Assembly (NCBI GenBank): GCA_041657665.1
Contig: JBBABN010000001.1
Location: forward strand, 2,355 to 66,354
Length of the DNA stretch: 64,000 bases
Direction: 5' to 3'
Source of the DNA: Minisyncoccota bacterium
Lineage (GTDB): Bacteria > Patescibacteriota > Minisyncoccia > Phycocordibacterales > Phycocordibacteraceae
The position numbers and the translations under genes are program-made. The notes under the pieces were generated by a model. That model ran no database searches. It was not told the DNA's origin and worked only from the letters and a program-made list of their open reading frames with translations. This document shows positions 14,689-64,000 of this stretch, in pieces (positions within the stretch are counted from its first letter, which is position 1; each line of letters begins with the position of its first letter).

Positions 14689-15204
14689 TTATCCTCGTGA
14701 AGTGATCGTAAACTTTTTTGGATCGTCACACATATCAGTAAATGCATGTGCTACTTCCTTCAATTTACTTGATGATGACTTACCGAATGAAATAACTTCA
14801 ACTTGGCATCCTTCATTCATATCCAGATACTGGATAAGTGGAATAAAATCACCGTCGCCGGTCGCGAGAATAACCGTATCGAGTTTCGGAGCAAGCTTCA
14901 CTGCATCGATAGCGAGCCCGACATCCCAGTCAGCTTTCTTGGCACCATCAGCGAATATCTGAAGATCTTTCACTTTTGTTTCGATACCCATCTTCGTAAG
15001 TGCCCCGAAGAAATTATTCTCTTCCCCACTGTCCGTGGAGATAACATAAGCGATAGCACGCACGAGAATGCGTCCGCCCACCGCTTCTTCAAGAACTTTC
15101 GCGAAGTTTACACGCGCCTTATAGAGATGTTTCGCACTATGATAAAGATTTTGTGTGTCGATAAATACGCCCACACGTTGAGCTGGATGTTTAATAACTG
15201 CCAT
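14689..15204 (-). CDS. NYN-domain (LabA/DUF88-like) predicted RNA nuclease
   Basis: VFIDTQNLYHSAKHL... and ...VILATGDGDFIPLI match the NYN/LabA PIN-like acidic-residue pattern. Confidence 0.7.
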   Translation of the reverse strand: MAVIKHPAQRVGVFIDTQNLYHSAKHLYKARVNFAKVLEEAVGGRILVRAIAYVISTDSGEENNFFGALTKMGIETKVKDLQIFADGAKKADWDVGLAIDAVKLAPKLDTVILATGDGDFIPLIQYLDMNEGCQVEVISFGKSSSSKLKEVAHAFTDMCDDPKKFTITSRG

Positions 15205-29474: not shown

Positions 29475-29494
29475 ATTTAAAAGAACAATTCTTT

Positions 29495-29546
29495 GCTGTT
29501 TCGTCCTTTTTGGACTCATCAGGGGAGAGAAATATCTCCCGACAGC
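29495..29546 (-). ncRNA. Type III hammerhead ribozyme (minimal, all core positions canonical)
   Basis: Minus-strand sense: GCUGUC^GGGAGA-UAUUUC-UCUCCC CUGAUGA GUCC-AAAAA-GGAC GAAAC AGC. Stem III GCUGU/ACAGC with A15.1-U16.1 and C17 (GUC, cleavage between + coordinates 29541/29540). Stem I 6 bp, stem II 4 bp (G10.1-C11.1). Invariant C3 U4 G5 A6 U7 G8 A9 and G12 A13 A14 are all present. Confidence 0.85.
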
Positions 29547-29696
29547 AATCCGTATCGTGGATTAGTCGAATCCCGTATTCGTTGGATTAATCGGATGGTA
29601 GTCATTATCGGCGTTGACCTTACCGTGCCAATCATTACTGACTGGCAGGTTTGCAGTTATTTCCATCACCTTACCTGCAAACCGTTTTACCCTGCG

Positions 29697-59931: not shown

Positions 59932-60926
59932 AAAATAGCACTGAGTTTCTCGTCATTCAAATAAGCGCGGCCTTTGGGTGTAAGGATGCGGCCGCGCGCC
60001 GAGCGCTCGATGAAGCCGAGACGGAGTAGAAACGGCTCATAGACATTCTCAATAGTGTCTGATTCTTCATGAATAGCCGCTGCGAGCGCGCGGACTCCCG
60101 CCGGCCCGCCACGGAAACTTTCAAGAAGTGTTTCGAGATAGCGACGATCATCTTTGGTGAGGCCGAATGCATCAATGCCAAAAAGTTCACAGGCCTCATC
60201 ACAGAGTTTTCCAGAGAGAGATCGTTCGTGTACCTCGGAAAAATCACGAACACGCTTTAAAAGAGCATTCGCAACACGAGGTGTCGCTCGACTGCGGGCT
60301 GCTATCTGTTCAATAACATCTCCCGGTACTGAAAGTTCGAGCAAGTGAGCTGAACGTCGGATGATTTCGCGTAAATCATCATCATTATAAAAATCAAGCT
60401 GGTATACACCGCCGCCGAAGCGTGAACGCAATGGTCCCGAGAGGTCGGCGACGCGTGTGGTCGCTCCGACCAAAGTGAACGGAGGAAGAGCAAGCTCGAC
60501 CGTACGCGCCGAAGGACCTTTCCCGAGCACTATGTCGAGATGTCCCGACTCGAGAGCGGGGTAGAGGAGTTCTTCAATTTTCCGTGCGAGACGATGGATC
60601 TCGTCAATAAAGAGGACAGTGTTTGGTTCAAGGTTAGTCAGTATTGCCGCGAGGTCGCCCGCGCGTTCGATGGCAACGCCCGAAGTGCTTTTCAGAGGCG
60701 ATTCGAGCGTCGTAGCGACAAGATGAGCGAGGGTCGTCTTCCCGACGCCTGGCGGGCCATAGAAGAGGAAATGCTCAGGCATACCACCACGCTTTTTTGC
60801 CGCATCGATAGAAATTCGCACACTTGCTTTGACCTGTTTCTGGCCTACATACTCATCCCAGTGGCTGGGGCGGAGGACTGCGTCGAGCGAGGCAGTTGGC
60901 GGTGGCATTTTAACAGGACTTGACAT
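59928..60926 (-). CDS. ruvB: Holliday junction branch-migration ATPase RuvB
   Basis: Walker A GPPGVGKTTLA, Walker B LFIDEIHRL, sensor 2 and a C-terminal winged helix. Confidence 0.95.
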   Translation of the reverse strand: MSSPVKMPPPTASLDAVLRPSHWDEYVGQKQVKASVRISIDAAKKRGGMPEHFLFYGPPGVGKTTLAHLVATTLESPLKSTSGVAIERAGDLAAILTNLEPNTVLFIDEIHRLARKIEELLYPALESGHLDIVLGKGPSARTVELALPPFTLVGATTRVADLSGPLRSRFGGGVYQLDFYNDDDLREIIRRSAHLLELSVPGDVIEQIAARSRATPRVANALLKRVRDFSEVHERSLSGKLCDEACELFGIDAFGLTKDDRRYLETLLESFRGGPAGVRALAAAIHEESDTIENVYEPFLLRLGFIERSARGRILTPKGRAYLNDEKLSAIF

Positions 60927-60970
60927 AAAAATTATGCGATGCTAGCATTCTATCACAGTTTCTTTGATCC

Positions 60971-61113
60971 TATTCATAATCCTCTGGGCAAGGCTTGACG
61001 GCTTTTGGCGATTCCCCAAGGACTTTCTGGTTCGATACTTCGGTATTGACGCTGGGGAGCCCCTCAGGTGTCTCGTCTTCCCCGCCTTTTGGCGGGTTTT
61101 GCCCTGAGGATTA
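60971..61113 (+). ncRNA. Candidate structured RNA (or MITE-like element) bounded by a 15-bp inverted repeat, with internal hairpins including a UUCG tetraloop and a terminator-like 3' hairpin
   Basis: CATAATCCTCTGGGC (60973..60987) pairs 14/15 with GCCCTGAGGATTATG (61097..61111). Inside are GATAC-TTCG-GTATT, CCCCA..TGGGG and CCCCGCC-TTTT-GGCGGG followed by TTTTG. No ORF. Strand assignment is tentative. Confidence 0.45.
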
Positions 61114-61155
61114 TGGATGGGATGTAGATGTTCTTTTCACAATCAGGAGGTTCAA

Positions 61156-61332
61156 ATGAAAACGAGAATTAAATCTTTTTCCGGGGAAGGAAGATTTTTC
61201 GAGGAAACTGTAAATGAGTGGCTTGCAGAAGTCGGCGAGATTGAAATTATACATGTTGTTCAATCTTCTATTCCATACGAGAATGTCAGAGCGACAACAA
61301 TTCTGACATTCGTTTACCAGAAAGAAGAATAG
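61156..61332 (+). CDS. Hypothetical 58-aa protein
   Basis: Strong RBS CAGGAGG 6 nt before the ATG at 61156. Followed by the intrinsic terminator at 61352..61387. Confidence 0.45.
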   Translation: MKTRIKSFSGEGRFFEETVNEWLAEVGEIEIIHVVQSSIPYENVRATTILTFVYQKEE

Positions 61333-61351
61333 TCAGAACTCTCGCTCGACA

Positions 61352-61387
61352 GAAATCGCCCGATTCTGTCGGGCGATTTCTTTTTAT
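61352..61387 (+). terminator. Rho-independent terminator (GAAATCGCCCGA-TTCTG-TCGGGCGATTTC followed by a T-run)
   Basis: 12-bp stem followed by TTTTTATT. Confidence 0.8.
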
Positions 61388-61420
61388 TACTGACAAAGAA
61401 TCGCGTGATAATATGAGTTC

Positions 61421-61918
61421 ATGAAGGCTGATCAAAAGAATGTTGCGTATATAGACGGTGCGAATCTTCACAATGGAGTAAAAAATCTCTCGTGGCATTT
61501 TGATTACAAACGATTTCGTGTGTGGCTTCGTGAGAAATATGCGGTGGAGCAGGCGTATTTATTTATCGGAATGATGCCGAAATACAGTCAATTATATACA
61601 AAATTACAAGAACAGGGTTACACGCTCGTGTTTAAAGATATCATTTATGATGATAATGGAAAAGCAAAAGGGAATTGCGATGCAGATCTTGTGGTCGCTG
61701 CTATGCAAGATGCGTATGAGAATAAATTTGATACTGCTGTGCTCGTTTCGAGCGATGGTGATTATGCTCCGCTTGTAAAATTTCTTCTTGCGAAAGAAAA
61801 GATGCTGGCGGTTGTCTCGCCATACGAAACGTGTAAATGTTCGGTTTTATTGAAGCGAACAGGCGTAAAGATTTCTTATATCGCCGACCAAAGAACTATT
61901 TTGGAAGTCAGAAAATGA
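61421..61918 (+). CDS. NYN-domain (LabA/DUF88-like) predicted nuclease, second copy in the window
   Basis: VAYIDGANLHNGVKNL...DADLVVAAMQDAYENKFDTAVLVSSDGDYAPLV is the NYN acidic-residue pattern. It is a paralogue of 14689..15204. Confidence 0.7.
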   Translation: MKADQKNVAYIDGANLHNGVKNLSWHFDYKRFRVWLREKYAVEQAYLFIGMMPKYSQLYTKLQEQGYTLVFKDIIYDDNGKAKGNCDADLVVAAMQDAYENKFDTAVLVSSDGDYAPLVKFLLAKEKMLAVVSPYETCKCSVLLKRTGVKISYIADQRTILEVRK

Positions 61919-62021
61919 AAAGCCCCCAATGAGGACGAGCCTCATCAGGGTCTTTCCGTGAGAATAAGTTTACTATACGCGAGCGGTAAAACAAAGTCAA
62001 TCGATATCCACAGCAGCTTTA

Positions 62022-63692
62022 CTATCTCGGGAGATCAACGGTGTCGGCAACTTCGGAGAGGGAGGTGATACCAGAGAGTGCTTTTAGAATGCCGTCTTGC
62101 ACCATCGTGAGATAACCCTGTTTCGCGGTTAGTTTTGCAATTTCATTTTCGGGCGGATTATCGCGGAGGAATGTCGCGAGTTCATCATCCATAAAGATGG
62201 CTTCGTAGAGGCCGATACGACCTCGGTAACCAGTTTCTTTATCATTTTCAGGTGCCGGTTCCCAAACAGTCTCTATTTTTTCAGGAATGAGCGATTTATC
62301 AGAAAGCGGTTCGAACACTTTTGCGATCATCGCTTTTTCTTCGTCAGTGAGTGGTCGTTCTTTTTTCTTATCCGGATCGAGTTTGCGCAGGAGTCGTTGT
62401 GCCATCGAGACAGTTACGGCTGAACCAAACGACTTCGGGTCCGCGCCGAGGTCTGCGAGGCGCGGGAATGTTCCTGCGGCATTGTTGGTGTGGAGAGTAG
62501 AGAAGACGAAGTGGCCCGTGAGCGCTGCTTGTATAGCGATATTTGCGGTTTCACCATCACGTATTTCGCCGACCATAATGATGTCGGGGTCTTGGCGGAC
62601 GATTGATTTCAATCCTTCAGCGAATGTGTATTTCGTGCCCTCAACTTGCGTCTGCACAATGCCATCGAGATGGTACTCTACTGGATCTTCAATCGTAATA
62701 ATCTTTATTTCTGGTGTATGAATCTCGCGCAAGAATGAATAGAGAGTGGTTGTTTTACCACTACCAGTTGGACCAGTGGTGAGTAACATACCGTTCGGAC
62801 GCCGAATTTCGGTCTCGAGACGCGCGAGAAGTTTCGAGTGGATACCAAGCTCTTTATACGAGACCATCGTCGCTTCAGGATTAAGAATACGCATCACGAT
62901 GGATTCGCCATAGTTCCCAGGGATGAAGGAGACACGCATTTCTACCTCACTATCTTCGTGCGAGACGGTAAAACGCCCGTCTTGTGCCCGGTTTGTCACA
63001 TTCAGCTTTACTCCCGAGAGTAGTTTGATGCGGGAATTAACTTGATGATACGTTGTTGGATCGAAGAAATACGAATCAACGAGAATGCCATCAATACGAA
63101 GACGCATACGCGTTTTTTCTTCTCCTGGTTCGAAGTGAATATCGGAAGAACGAAGAGTGAATGCTCCAGCAAGGACGGTCTCGAGAATACGAGAAACACG
63201 ATCGAGCGATTTAATTGTGGTGGCAGCATTTAACGCTTCAGTAAGTGTGTTTTGTGTGCCACTCTCTTTCGAGAATGTGGCGAGTACTTCTGGTTCAATA
63301 ATAAATCCACCAGTCTTTGCTTCGGTAGAAAAGGAAAGGTCAGCGTAATGAGAAAATGCTTTTTCCAAACTTTTTTCTGAAACGAGAAATTCTTGTAGTG
63401 AGAATCCGCGTTCTGTAAGCTCGGCATGGAGTTTTATAAATGCAGGATTGTTTGGATTATGAATTGCAAGAGAAAGTTTCTTTGCAGTGCGTGCGAAAGC
63501 GGCTACTTCAGCAGCCCGCGCTTCTTCTTCTGGAATAGTGCGTAGCGCATCGTTATCTATCTCATTTAATGAGAGGTCAACATACGTCATTTGGTACTTG
63601 TCAGAGAGGATGTGTGCGACATCCTCTTCTTCTCGTTCACGTACCTCTGCTAACTTCTTTGTTTCTTGGTCAGTATCAAATGGTAGGTCCAT
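62022..63692 (-). CDS. Second GspE/PilB-family secretion/pilus ATPase
   Basis: Walker [15 protein letters not shown], Asp box, Walker [10 protein letters not shown], His box [12 protein letters not shown]. Start chosen at [10 protein letters not shown] (63692); the longer track ORF would overlap the divergent tsaE. Confidence 0.8.
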
Positions 63693-63719
63693 AAGCGTAT
63701 AATACACCGAATGGAGGCA

Positions 63720-64000
63720 ATGGTTAAAACACTTGAAGAACTTGACGCGGAGGTGGAGCGATTTATTGGCGTACTTTCCTCGAAAGAGGGTGGTGCGACG
63801 CTTGTAACCCTCTCGGGAGACTTGGGAGCGGGCAAGACTGCCTTTACGAAGGCAGTTGCGAGAATTCTCGGGGTGGAAGAAACGGTAACCAGCCCCACCT
63901 TCGTCCTTGAGAAGATTTATCAACTTGGGGGTCCGGCCCCCAAGTTCAAACGGTTGGTACATATTGACGCATATCGGCTTGAGTCAGGGGATGATCTCGC
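63720..64000 (+). CDS. tsaE: tRNA threonylcarbamoyladenosine biosynthesis protein TsaE (YjeE), 3'-partial at the window edge
   Basis: ...[17 protein letters not shown]...[12 protein letters not shown]...HIDAYRL has the P-loop and the SPTF and H-D-YR motifs of TsaE. No stop before 64000. Confidence 0.8.

What the first reader, a model, noticed from the sequence alone, without database searches (positions are those of the whole stretch)
60971..61918. Structured RNA candidate bounded by a 15-bp inverted repeat, followed by a 58-aa protein gene and an NYN nuclease gene
No ORF is predicted in 60971..61113. A 14/15-bp terminal helix (CAUAAUCCUCUGGGC / GCCCUGAGGAUUAUG) encloses ~110 nt containing a UUCG-tetraloop hairpin, a CCCCA/UGGGG helix and a terminator-like CCCCGCC-UUUU-GGCGGG-UUUU. 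Immediately downstream are a strongly initiated 58-aa ORF with its own terminator and a 165-aa NYN-domain nuclease. This is the second NYN gene in the window; the other, at 14689..15204, sits beside rpsO. Three explanations are possible: a small regulatory or antitoxin-like RNA acting with the NYN nuclease, a riboswitch or leader for the small ORF, or a MITE insertion with terminal inverted repeats.
Basis: seen in the sequence. Interest (0 to 1): 0.55.

Follow-up and report, generated by a model that had tools for sequence, protein, structure and literature searches.

The report
Conserved small RNA gene beside ruvB
The inverted repeat closes a real, strongly conserved small RNA of about 155 bases that sits next to the ruvB gene in a whole clade of ultra-small (CPR) bacteria, belongs to no catalogued RNA family, looks most like the polymerase-regulating 6S RNA, and is neither a mobile element nor a partner of the neighbouring small protein or NYN nuclease genes.

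Summary
The arms extend to 25 nt (22/25 complementary). The + strand folds far better than shuffles (z = -6.2).

Comparative data change its meaning. The element (60968-61122, + strand) is a single-copy small-RNA gene. It lies immediately upstream of, and divergent from, ruvB in about 80 related Paceibacterota metagenome contigs.

- It is more conserved than ruvB DNA (82% vs 73%).
- 22 of 56 base pairs show compensatory changes.
- G.U cells outnumber A.C cells 609 to 15, which fixes the strand as +.
- The promoter TTGACA-17-TGnTAnCAT is conserved.
- No Rfam family matches.

It is not a MITE, and it is not tied to the 58-aa ORF or to NYN. In most relatives convergent pilB follows the RNA directly. 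In about 15-20 lineages, unrelated promoterless ORFs sit between the RNA and a shared terminator.

The architecture fits 6S RNA best: a long mismatched closing stem, a 14-16-nt 5' central strand, an apical arm with regular internal loops, and a hairpin on the 3' central strand. However, the Rfam 6S model and the pRNA 'GG' hallmark are not met, so the function is inferred.

Separately, the NYN gene carries its own conserved convergent sRNA candidate of about 55 nt (about 61912-61965, - strand).

The parts
60920..60948 (+). Promoter of the RNA gene: -35 TTGACA (60920-60925, overlapping the ruvB start codon), 17-nt spacer, extended -10 TGCTAGCAT (60940-60948). Inferred TSS about 60955.
   Evidence: Promoter scan gives 10/12 with TG. 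TTGACA is present in 61/69 and TGnTAnnAT in 59/69 orthologous loci, while the spacer varies.
60947..60955 (-). Candidate extended -10 (TGATAGAAT) of the divergent ruvB promoter, overlapping the -10 of the RNA promoter. The inferred ruvB leader is only about 14 nt.
   Evidence: The block ATTCTAnCAnAG is conserved in the alignment of upstream regions. The reading as a promoter is inference.
60968..60991 (+). 5' arm of closing stem P1.
   Evidence: It pairs with 61099-61122: 21 pairs, 98% of cells paired, 6 pairs with compensatory changes, and conserved U.U and C.C/A-U mismatch positions.
60992..61005 (+). 5' central strand GGCUUGACGGCUU(U/C), nearly invariant. It could form a weak 4-bp hairpin, which has no covariation support. 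In a 6S reading it corresponds to the 5' central bubble.
   Evidence: helix 2: no pair with a change on both sides.
61006..61078 (+). Apical arm P2. The base has invariant internal loops (CCC-CA-AGG / CCU-CA-GG.G). The outer helix and the UUCG-capped tip (loop 61039-61042) are variable.
   Evidence: Helices 3-5 have 25 pairs, 12 of them with compensatory changes. The tip is truncated in L076.
61081..61096 (+). Hairpin P3 on the 3' central strand (CCCGCC-UUUU-GGCGGG).
   Evidence: 4 of 6 pairs have compensatory changes. Loop length varies, and there is an 83-nt insertion in L077/L081.
61099..61122 (+). 3' arm of closing stem P1. In 50/69 relatives a T-run follows directly; in the window the junction motif follows instead.
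61130..61139 (+). Junction motif GTTCTTTTCA, shared by all lineages that carry an ORF after the RNA.
61156..61332 (+). 58-aa ORF with a strong SD (61144-61149). It is one of many unrelated 'cargo' ORFs found at this position, and it is not part of the RNA's conserved unit.
61351..61386 (+). Terminator module (AGAAATCGCCCGA-TTCTG-TCGGGCGATTTCT + T-run) shared by the cargo-bearing lineages. In L091 it follows the RNA directly ('empty site').
   Evidence: Single copy in the window.
61406..61918 (+). NYN gene with its own extended -10 (TGATAATAT, 61406-61414) 6 nt before the ATG at 61421. It is an independent module, not linked to the RNA.
61912..62012 (-). Candidate convergent sRNA of the NYN module: DnaA-box-like ATATCCACA (62004-62012 on +), -35 TTGACT (62000..61995), -10 TATAGT (61977..61972), conserved 5' segment AUYCYYACGRAAAGACCC, an 11-bp hairpin (61950..61924) and a U-run that overlaps the NYN stop codon.

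Best explanation
60968-61122 (+ strand) is the structured core of a stand-alone, single-copy, vertically inherited small-RNA gene of a Paceibacterota (CPR) clade.

Transcription unit (inferred from conserved signals). It is transcribed from its own conserved sigma-70-type promoter (60920-60948), back-to-back with the ruvB promoter. In most relatives it ends at a U-run right after the closing stem. In the window's lineage it ends further on, at the terminator 61351-61386, after an inserted cargo ORF.

Shown: the conservation, the synteny, the strand and the secondary structure.

Most likely function (inferred). The RNA is a 6S-type RNA, a mimic of an open promoter that binds the housekeeping RNA-polymerase holoenzyme. 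On that reading:
- the 21-pair closing stem with spaced mismatches plays the downstream duplex;
- the invariant 14-16-nt 5' central strand plays the template strand;
- the P3 hairpin occupies the opposite strand of the bubble;
- the apical arm, interrupted every 3-6 bp by small conserved loops, plays the upstream (-35-side) duplex.

The 58-aa ORF and the NYN gene are later, unrelated insertions between this RNA and convergent pilB.
For: Real RNA gene:
- It is present in essentially all 80 loci recovered through RuvB, always about 35-40 bp upstream of ruvB on the opposite strand, at 74-94% identity over nearly the full length in most.
- Its nucleotide identity exceeds that of ruvB in 67/68 loci, with means of 82% and 73%.
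- The consensus structure has 56 pairs; 97.1% of cells are paired against 39-52% for slid controls. 22 pairs carry compensatory changes against 11.9 +/- 1.5 in shuffles (0/500).
- G.U cells number 609 and A.C cells 15. The covariance model scores 185 bits on the + strand and 34 bits on the - strand.
- No reading frame is conserved.
- There is a conserved -35 / extended -10 with a variable spacer, and a T-rich tail in 50/69 loci.
- It is single copy in the window.

Stand-alone:
- pilB stops within 30 nt or less of the RNA in about 27 loci. Elsewhere the downstream content differs from lineage to lineage.

6S-like:
- The published definition is 160-200 nt, rod-shaped, with a closing stem carrying small bulges, a large 5' central bulge, an apical stem with small internal loops, and a hairpin opposite the 5' bulge as in B. 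subtilis 6S-1 (PMC8414754, PMC8876501). It matches the consensus element by element.
- The peripheral parts (apical tip, P3) vary in length while the regions flanking the central strands are invariant.
- Co-transcription of a 6S gene with a downstream ORF has a precedent in E. coli ssrS-ygfA (own knowledge).
Against: - No Rfam 6S model (nor any other family) matches, even at E <= 10 on 186 nt, in the window or in 15 homologous loci.
- The pRNA hallmark reported across distant 6S RNAs, GG at pRNA position 4/5 or 5/6 (PMC8414754), would need CC in the 5' central strand. GGCUUGACGGCUUC has none.
- The 5' central strand is G+C-rich and could form a small hairpin.
- No 'bubble-collapse' alternative helix longer than 3-5 bp was apparent by inspection.
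- At about 155-170 nt the RNA is at the short end for 6S.
- Its distribution beyond this clade is unknown, and I could not check whether these genomes carry another 6S gene.
- There are no expression data.
Confidence: 0.4

Rival explanations
1. The RNA belongs to a new class of structured housekeeping RNA that is unrelated in function to 6S. It could be, for example, the scaffold or sponge of a CPR-specific protein, or a component of an RNP. Its invariant internal loops (CCC-CA-AGG / CCU-CA-GG) and the invariant GGCUUGACGGCUUC segment would then be protein-binding or tertiary-contact sites.
For: The RNA matches no Rfam family. Several nominally unpaired segments are extremely conserved, which is more than 6S RNAs usually show. 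The 6S pRNA hallmark is absent. A multi-branch junction reading (P1, small hairpin, P2, P3) is equally compatible with the data.
Against: No partner protein is consistently encoded nearby; ruvB and pilB are simply the ancestral neighbours. The overall dimensions fit 6S well.
Confidence: 0.33
2. The RNA acts as a cis-acting expression platform. It would be a highly expressed, nuclease-resistant 5' structure whose promoter drives, and whose fold stabilises or insulates, promoterless cargo ORFs captured between it and its terminator. The 58-aa ORF would be one such cargo.
For: At least 13 unrelated ORFs follow the RNA within 20-55 nt. Each has a strong SD, no recognisable promoter, a shared left junction GTTCTTTY and a shared terminator on the right. 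L091 shows the empty site. In these lineages the U-run after P1 is missing.
Against: In roughly 40% of the loci with enough downstream sequence (27 of about 69) pilB follows within 30 nt, so there is no same-strand ORF at all, yet the RNA is equally conserved there. The elaborate invariant internal loops are not needed for a mere stabiliser. The cargo may simply exploit a strong promoter.
Confidence: 0.12
3. The gene acts as a regulator of ruvB (and of yebC and ruvC downstream). The two -10 elements overlap back-to-back, so transcription of the RNA gene would exclude RNA polymerase from the ruvB promoter. The RNA product itself would matter less than the act of transcription.
For: The -10 boxes overlap at 60943-60952, and the RNA's -35 overlaps the ruvB start codon. 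This layout is conserved in most loci.
Against: Promoter interference needs no 155-nt structure with 22 covarying pairs. In L049, L057/L083 and L072 the RNA is kept although its upstream region differs.
Confidence: 0.06
4. The element is a MITE or other mobile element with terminal inverted repeats.
For: It has 25-nt inverted arms. Two Logan contigs start at the same internal base. In L088 a 41-nt repeat of the RNA's 3' end flanks an inserted toxin-antitoxin cassette.
Against: There is one copy in 64 kb and one per orthologous locus, always at the same site in about 80 relatives. It diverges in step with the genome, has no target-site duplication, and shows G.U-type covariation in the arms. 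It is absent from viral contigs.
Confidence: 0.01
5. The RNA is an antitoxin-like or guide RNA acting with the downstream NYN nuclease, or a riboswitch of the 58-aa ORF.
For: The evidence is adjacency in the window and in L106.
Against: The RNA is missing from all NYN loci outside the ruvB-pilB site. NYN and the 58-aa ORF are missing from most RNA loci. In L002 and L025 the RNA is followed by ParE-type cassettes instead. No expression platform overlaps the fold.
Confidence: 0.02

Closest known systems
6S RNA (ssrS; Rfam RF00013 and lineage-specific relatives such as 6S-Flavo)
   Same: It is about 160 nt. It has a long closing stem formed by the two ends, with small mismatches, and a central region with a free 5' strand and a hairpin on the 3' strand. 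The apical arm is broken by small internal loops. It is a single-copy gene with a strong housekeeping-type promoter and strong local synteny, and in some lineages it is co-transcribed with a downstream ORF.
   Different: It does not match the Rfam models. The pRNA 'GG' hallmark is absent. The 5' central strand is G+C-rich and invariant. RNA-polymerase binding is untested.
Ms1 RNA of Actinobacteria (a 6S-like RNA that binds core RNA polymerase)
   Same: It is a lineage-restricted RNA that resembles 6S in shape but escapes 6S models, and it was found through synteny (PMC9130861, listed).
   Different: Ms1 is about 300 nt and has a different arrangement of arms. No sequence relation was tested or is expected.
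Integron gene cassettes / insertion hotspots at the 3' end of RNA genes (tRNA, tmRNA)
   Same: Unrelated promoterless ORFs, each followed by a conserved palindromic element, are lined up behind one strong promoter. In one locus (L088) the insert is flanked by a repeat of the RNA's 3' end.
   Different: No integrase is nearby. The junction GTTCTTTY does not fit the integron core site GTTRRRY. There is usually a single cargo. The mechanism is unknown.
MITEs
   Same: It has terminal inverted repeats and a size of about 150 bp.
   Different: It is single copy and fixed at one orthologous site, has no target-site duplication, and evolves as an RNA helix.
Cis-antisense sRNAs convergent with a toxin or enzyme gene (e.g. 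the 3'-overlapping antitoxins of type I systems such as RatA/txpA); this comparison is for the NYN-linked sRNA candidate only
   Same: It is a short RNA with its own promoter, convergent with the protein gene and overlapping its 3' end. It is conserved together with that gene across lineages.
   Different: NYN is a 165-aa nuclease-fold protein, not a small membrane toxin. Neither toxicity nor regulation has been shown.

Membership tests
6S RNA | About 160-200 nt, rod-like: a closing stem formed by the 5' and 3' ends and an apical stem, both interrupted by small loops and bulges (PMC8414754, PMC8876501) | tested here: met
   The structured core is about 155 nt (about 170 nt from the inferred TSS). 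P1 has 21 pairs with 3 mismatch positions. The apical arm has 25 pairs in 3 helices separated by 2x2 and 3x3 loops. Both are supported by covariation.
6S RNA | Large central bubble with an open 5' strand | tested here: inconclusive
   A 14-16-nt strand (60992-61005) lies between P1 and P2. It could form a 4-bp G.U-rich hairpin, which neither varies nor covaries (helix 2).
6S RNA | Hairpin on the 3' central strand opposite the 5' bulge (B. subtilis 6S-1 / LAB type) | tested here: met
   P3 (61081-61096) has 4 of 6 pairs with compensatory changes.
6S RNA | Match to the Rfam 6S covariance models | tested here: not met
   No 6S hit at the gathering threshold or at E <= 10 on 186 nt, on 601 nt, or on 15 homologous loci.
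6S RNA | pRNA template with GG at pRNA position 4/5 or 5/6 (PMC8414754) | tested here: not met
   The 5' central strand GGCUUGACGGCUUC contains no CC. The nearest CC is in CUCCUC of P1, more than 13 nt away (read from the sequence; for the hallmark).
6S RNA | Binds sigma-70/sigma-A holoenzyme and templates pRNA synthesis | not testable with these tools
   This needs biochemistry or small-RNA sequencing.
6S RNA | Own housekeeping promoter; abundant transcript | tested here: inconclusive
   The promoter TTGACA-17-TGnTAnCAT is conserved. Abundance cannot be tested.
MITE | Many dispersed copies in a genome | tested here: not met
   One copy in the 64-kb window and one per locus in about 80 loci. 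A whole genome was not available.
MITE | Target-site duplication and presence/absence polymorphism at orthologous sites | tested here: not met
   The flanks differ (TTTCTTTG / GTAGATG). The element is present at the same site in essentially all relatives.
Riboswitch / cis-regulatory leader | Conserved association with one downstream gene family on the same strand | tested here: not met
   Downstream there is either convergent pilB or one of at least 13 unrelated ORFs.
Riboswitch / cis-regulatory leader | Expression platform (terminator or SD-sequestering helix) that competes with the conserved fold | tested here: not met
   P3 lies inside P1, has a free-varying loop and tolerates an 83-nt insertion. 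The SD lies 21 nt beyond P1 and is unpaired.
RNA antitoxin / partner RNA of the NYN nuclease | Co-occurrence with the protein partner | tested here: not met
   The RNA was not found in 20 NYN loci from other genomes, nor in the later NYN loci other than L106, which is the same ruvB-pilB site. Most RNA loci lack NYN.
SRP (4.5S) RNA | Conserved helix-8 loops next to a GNAR tetraloop; match to the Rfam SRP models | tested here: not met
   The apical tip is the most variable part and is capped by UUCG. There is no SRP hit.
Intrinsic terminator (for hairpin 61081-61096) | G+C-rich hairpin followed by a U-run that ends the transcript | tested here: inconclusive
   The hairpin plus UUUU is present. 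However, the U-run is part of P1 (UUGCC pairs with GGCAA), and conservation and covariation continue 25 nt beyond it.

The most novel reading that the evidence does not exclude
The locus may be a previously undescribed cargo-capture site. In this reading a highly expressed structured RNA gene serves as a fixed docking and expression platform. Unrelated promoterless genes are repeatedly inserted between the RNA and its terminator, at the junction GTTCTTTY, by an unknown recombination mechanism. That would be an integron-like arrangement without a linked integrase in genome-reduced CPR bacteria. Alternatively, or in addition, the RNA could be the first 6S-type polymerase regulator of CPR bacteria, using a non-canonical template strand.
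Probability: 0.12. Interest if true: 0.8.

Novelty: new variant of a known kind. Interest (0 to 1): 0.55.

Why it matters
CPR/Patescibacteria have tiny genomes with very little non-coding DNA, and almost nothing is known about their regulatory RNAs. In the full-text library searched I found no report of a 6S RNA or of any lineage-specific structured sRNA for them.

This RNA has 22 covarying pairs, is conserved more strongly than the neighbouring ruvB gene, and has its own near-consensus promoter. It is therefore almost certainly functional and is a good seed for a new RNA family.

If it is a 6S analogue, it extends global control of RNA polymerase to episymbiotic ultra-small bacteria. It also gives a divergent test case for what a 6S RNA minimally needs.

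The variable cargo ORFs behind it and the separate NYN-plus-antisense-sRNA module are concrete, testable examples of how small genes move and are expressed in these genomes.

Tried and rejected
- Rfam at the gathering threshold on the whole window, and at E <= 10 on 601 nt, on 186 nt and on 15 homologous loci, gave no family. The only matches were trivial hairpin hits on the wrong strand.
- The search for extra copies in the window with the pattern, blastn and the covariance model found none.
- The small-ORF route gave only two protein clusters, so it was no use for finding RNA homologues.
- The NYN route produced 21 genome loci without the RNA.
- Viral contigs had no match to two RNA patterns or to NYN.
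- SRP RNA, 5S rRNA, Y RNA, retron msr/msd and hammerhead readings were considered and dropped. Their defining motifs, an RT gene or a Ro protein context are missing. The CUGAUGAG in the NYN-linked hairpin is not conserved.
- The coding reading was rejected because the open frame shifts between homologues.
- Self-search for repeats of the RNA's 3' end flanking inserts found a clear case only in L088.
- The integron core-site reading of GTTCTTTY was rejected because it does not fit GTTRRRY.
- Literature searches for 6S or structured RNAs in CPR found nothing, and Wehner et al. 2014 is not held.
Full report
1. THE OBSERVATION

The window comes from a Candidatus Paceibacterota (CPR/Patescibacteria) MAG, according to the source names attached to the proteins.

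The reported 14/15 helix is at 60975-60989 / 61101-61115. It extends to 25-nt arms, 60967-60991 / 61099-61123, that are 88% complementary.

The + strand of 60971-61120 folds at -72.9 kcal/mol, against -48.4 +/- 4.0 for dinucleotide shuffles (z = -6.2). The - strand folds less well (z = -4.9).

The neighbouring features were also checked:
- The 58-aa ORF is 61156-61332. It has AGGAGG upstream and a strong terminator at 61351-61386.
- ORF 61421-61918 is an NYN protein.
- The second NYN gene, beside rpsO at 14689-15204 on the - strand, is only 27% identical to it.

So the description is accurate, with three corrections:
- The proposed CCCCA/UGGGG helix does not survive comparison with relatives.
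- The internal 'terminator' lies inside the closing helix.
- Mechanical ORFs do overlap the region, but they are not conserved (see section 3).

2. RELATIVES

The routes through the small ORF and through NYN led nowhere for the RNA:
- The 58-aa protein has only one relative among 5.8 billion clusters. That relative sits on short Logan contigs, where the RNA's 3' part and the ORF are followed by a ParE-type cassette instead of NYN.
- The NYN protein is 70-90% identical across many CPR lineages. The 21 genome loci that encode it do not contain the RNA.

The decisive step was to fetch the 80 closest RuvB loci from metagenomes (RuvB 82-94% identical). blastn and nhmmer find the element in essentially all of them. 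It always lies about 35-40 bp upstream of ruvB on the opposite strand, and in most it is 74-94% identical over nearly its full length. Contigs that end inside the element show the corresponding part.

The element is therefore a fixed, single-copy, vertically inherited feature of this clade. It is also single copy in the window. Its nucleotide identity to the window copy exceeds that of the ruvB coding sequence in 67 of 68 loci, with means of 82% and 73%.

3. STRUCTURE AND STRAND

Sixty-one distinct sequences were aligned (A1).

RNAalifold gives 56 pairs. On these pairs:
- 97.1% of cells form standard pairs, against 39-52% when the partners are slid by 1-3 columns.
- 22 pairs carry changes on both sides, against 11.9 +/- 1.5 in column shuffles (0 of 500 shuffles reach the observed value).

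Every helix except the small GGCU/GGCU hairpin has compensatory changes.

G.U cells number 609 and A.C cells 15. The covariance model scores 185 bits on the + strand and 34 bits on the - strand. The RNA is therefore on the + strand.

No reading frame is maintained. The open frame differs between homologues, and lengths differ by non-multiples of three.

In window coordinates the parts are:
- P1 closing stem: 60968-60991 with 61099-61122.
- 5' central strand: 60992-61005, nearly invariant (GGCUUGACGGCUUY).
- Apical arm P2: 61006-61078. Its basal internal loops are invariant (CCC-CA-AGG / CCU-CA-GG.G). Its outer helix covaries, and its tip is variable and capped by UUCG.
- Hairpin P3: 61081-61096.

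The periphery is plastic. The P2 tip is deleted in L076, P3 carries an 83-nt insertion in L077/L081, and five loci have an insertion of about 50 nt between the promoter and P1.

4. TRANSCRIPTION SIGNALS

The region upstream of P1 is strikingly conserved: TTGACA, then 17 variable nt, then TGCTA(G/A)CAT. TTGACA is found in 61/69 loci and the extended -10 in 59/69.

The -35 overlaps the ruvB start codon. On the other strand, the conserved block ATTCTAnCAnAG reads TGnTAGAAT, a plausible extended -10 for ruvB. The two promoters would then be back-to-back with overlapping -10 elements. This reading is inference.

A T-rich tail follows P1 directly in 50/69 loci.

5. WHAT LIES DOWNSTREAM

In about 27 loci the convergent pilB gene (type IV pilus ATPase, 62022-63962 in the window) stops within 30 nt of the RNA. 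This is the likely ancestral arrangement, and it shows that the RNA is not a leader.

In about 15-20 lineages, including the window, the T-run is replaced by a shared junction, GTTCTTTY. A strong SD and an ORF follow, and the ORF differs from lineage to lineage. Examples are the 58-aa protein here, an XRE-type HTH protein, a SemiSWEET-like membrane protein, a zinc-ribbon-like protein and several ORFans. Each is followed by the same terminator module that the window has at 61351-61386.

L091 shows the empty site, with the RNA, then GTTCTTT, then the terminator. In L025, the closest relative, the flanks are kept but the ORF is replaced.

The 58-aa ORF is thus one of many interchangeable cargo genes, probably expressed by read-through from the RNA promoter. 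Toxin-antitoxin cassettes and the NYN module are further insertions between this unit and pilB.

6. WHAT THE RNA IS

It matches no Rfam 15 family. This was tested at the gathering threshold, at E <= 10 on 601 nt and on 186 nt, and on 15 homologous loci.

The readings that were excluded:
- MITE, riboswitch or leader, and NYN partner are excluded by copy number, by synteny and by the lack of co-occurrence with NYN or the 58-aa ORF.
- SRP RNA is excluded. The apical tip, which is the conserved Ffh-binding site in SRP RNA, is the most variable part here.

Of the known kinds, the architecture fits 6S RNA. 6S is described as 160-200 nt and rod-shaped, with:
- an outer closing stem with small bulges;
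- a large 5' central bulge;
- an apical stem with small internal loops;
- in B. subtilis 6S-1 and lactic acid bacteria, a hairpin opposite the 5' bulge (PMC8414754, PMC8876501).

All of these elements are present with the right proportions. The conservation pattern is also what a polymerase-docking RNA would show: invariant around the central region and free at the tips.

Against membership:
- The Rfam 6S models do not match.
- The GG hallmark of pRNAs cannot be encoded by the C-poor 5' central strand.
- That strand is unusually G+C-rich and invariant.
- I saw no convincing bubble-collapse helix.

I therefore do not file it as a 6S RNA. I rate '6S-type function' at about 0.4 and 'new class with another function' at about 0.33. 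That it is a functional stand-alone RNA gene I consider near certain.

7. A SECOND RNA CANDIDATE, LINKED TO NYN

DNA similarity between the window and NYN loci of other CPR lineages runs up to about 95 nt past the NYN stop codon.

Read on the - strand, the conserved block has these parts in order:
- a DnaA-box-like TGTGGATAA in about 10 of 18 loci;
- a -35 TTGAC(T/A), a 17-nt variable spacer and a -10 TAnAnT, often with TG;
- a conserved segment AUYCYYACGRAAAGACCC;
- an 11-bp hairpin and a U-run that overlaps the NYN stop codon.

In the hairpin, 94% of cells are paired, 3 pairs carry compensatory changes, and a U.G pair valid only on the - strand occurs in 16/18 sequences. It matches no Rfam family.

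Upstream, NYN has a conserved extended -10 only about 6-10 nt before the ATG, which suggests a leaderless mRNA.

So the NYN gene travels as a compact module with its own convergent sRNA candidate of about 55 nt. Whether the sRNA is made, and what it does, is untested.

8. VERDICT

The flagged feature is real and functional, but it is misattributed. It is a conserved small-RNA gene of a Paceibacterota clade, with a shape like 6S RNA and no catalogued family. The genes after it are unrelated insertions.

It is a solid new RNA family and a reasonable candidate for the missing 6S RNA of CPR bacteria. It also has an unusual cargo hotspot behind it. The interest is moderate rather than exceptional, because lineage-specific structured sRNAs are found regularly and the function remains inferred.

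Noticed in passing
window 61123-61386; loci L025, L034, L037, L042, L045, L062, L073/L078, L074/L080, L085, L089, L090, L093, L094, L100, L106, L091 (empty site): Unrelated promoterless ORFs with strong SD sequences sit between the conserved RNA and a shared terminator module. All share the left junction GTTCTTTY. They include an HTH_3 regulator, a SemiSWEET-like protein, zinc-ribbon-like proteins and ORFans. This looks like a cargo hotspot, and its insertion mechanism is unknown.
   Followed up: partly
window about 61912-62012 (- strand); equivalents in L004-L016, L018, L105, L106, L109, L111: There is a conserved convergent sRNA candidate at the 3' end of the NYN gene. It has its own -35/-10, a conserved 5' segment, a covarying 11-bp hairpin and a U-run that overlaps the NYN stop codon. 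It matches no Rfam family. A DnaA-box-like TGTGGATAA (ATATCCACA on the + strand at 62004-62012) lies just upstream of its -35 in about 10 of 18 loci.
   Followed up: partly
window 61406-61421; alignment A3: The NYN gene has a conserved extended -10 (GCGTGnTAnnAT) only about 6-10 nt before its ATG, which suggests a leaderless mRNA. The NYN protein is 70-90% identical across several Paceibacteria-type lineages and sits in different gene contexts (pilB, ychF, rpmG/clpB).
   Followed up: partly
L088:1615-2300 (- strand): A ParE-type toxin-antitoxin cassette lies directly after the RNA. It is flanked by a 41-nt direct repeat (95% identical) of the RNA's 3' end plus T-run, as after site-specific integration into the 3' end of an RNA gene. 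Self-search of the other loci found no second clear case.
   Followed up: yes
window 60920-60955: The RNA promoter and the putative ruvB promoter are back-to-back with overlapping -10 elements, within a 10-bp palindrome ATGCTAGCAT. The RNA's -35 overlaps the ruvB start codon, and ruvB would have a leader of about 14 nt with no SD.
   Followed up: partly
window 60985-60997 with 61099-61106: The 5' strand reads AGGCAAGGC, so the 3' strand UUGCCUUG can pair in two registers (AGGCAA/UUGCCU or CAAGGC/GCCUUG). In addition, CAAGG in the apical arm is complementary to CCUUG. All of these segments are invariant, so they may allow a conformational switch.
   Followed up: no
L077/L081 (83-nt insertion in P3), L076 (apical tip of P2 deleted), L042/L046/L084/L099/L102 (about 50-nt hairpin inserted between promoter and P1), L073 (divergent copy, 35 bits): These are length variants of the RNA that leave the core intact. 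They show which parts are dispensable.
   Followed up: partly
window 29493-29548 (- strand): Rfam finds a type III hammerhead ribozyme above the gathering score (52.3 bits, against a threshold of 48.5).
   Followed up: no
L002 and L003 (Logan contigs from two different runs): Both contigs begin at exactly the same base inside the RNA (the equivalent of window 61002). This may reflect a graph branch caused by strain variation in the 5' half. It is unexplained.
   Followed up: no
L106/L107 (one 133.8-kb contig): The block of RNA, small ORF, NYN and partial pilB appears twice in inverted orientation around a split pilB. This is probably an assembly palindrome or a real inverted duplication.
   Followed up: no
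window 61342-61381: The shared terminator module contains two mutually exclusive hairpins (61342-61354/61364-61376 and 61351-61363/61369-61381). Only the second is followed by the T-run.
   Followed up: no
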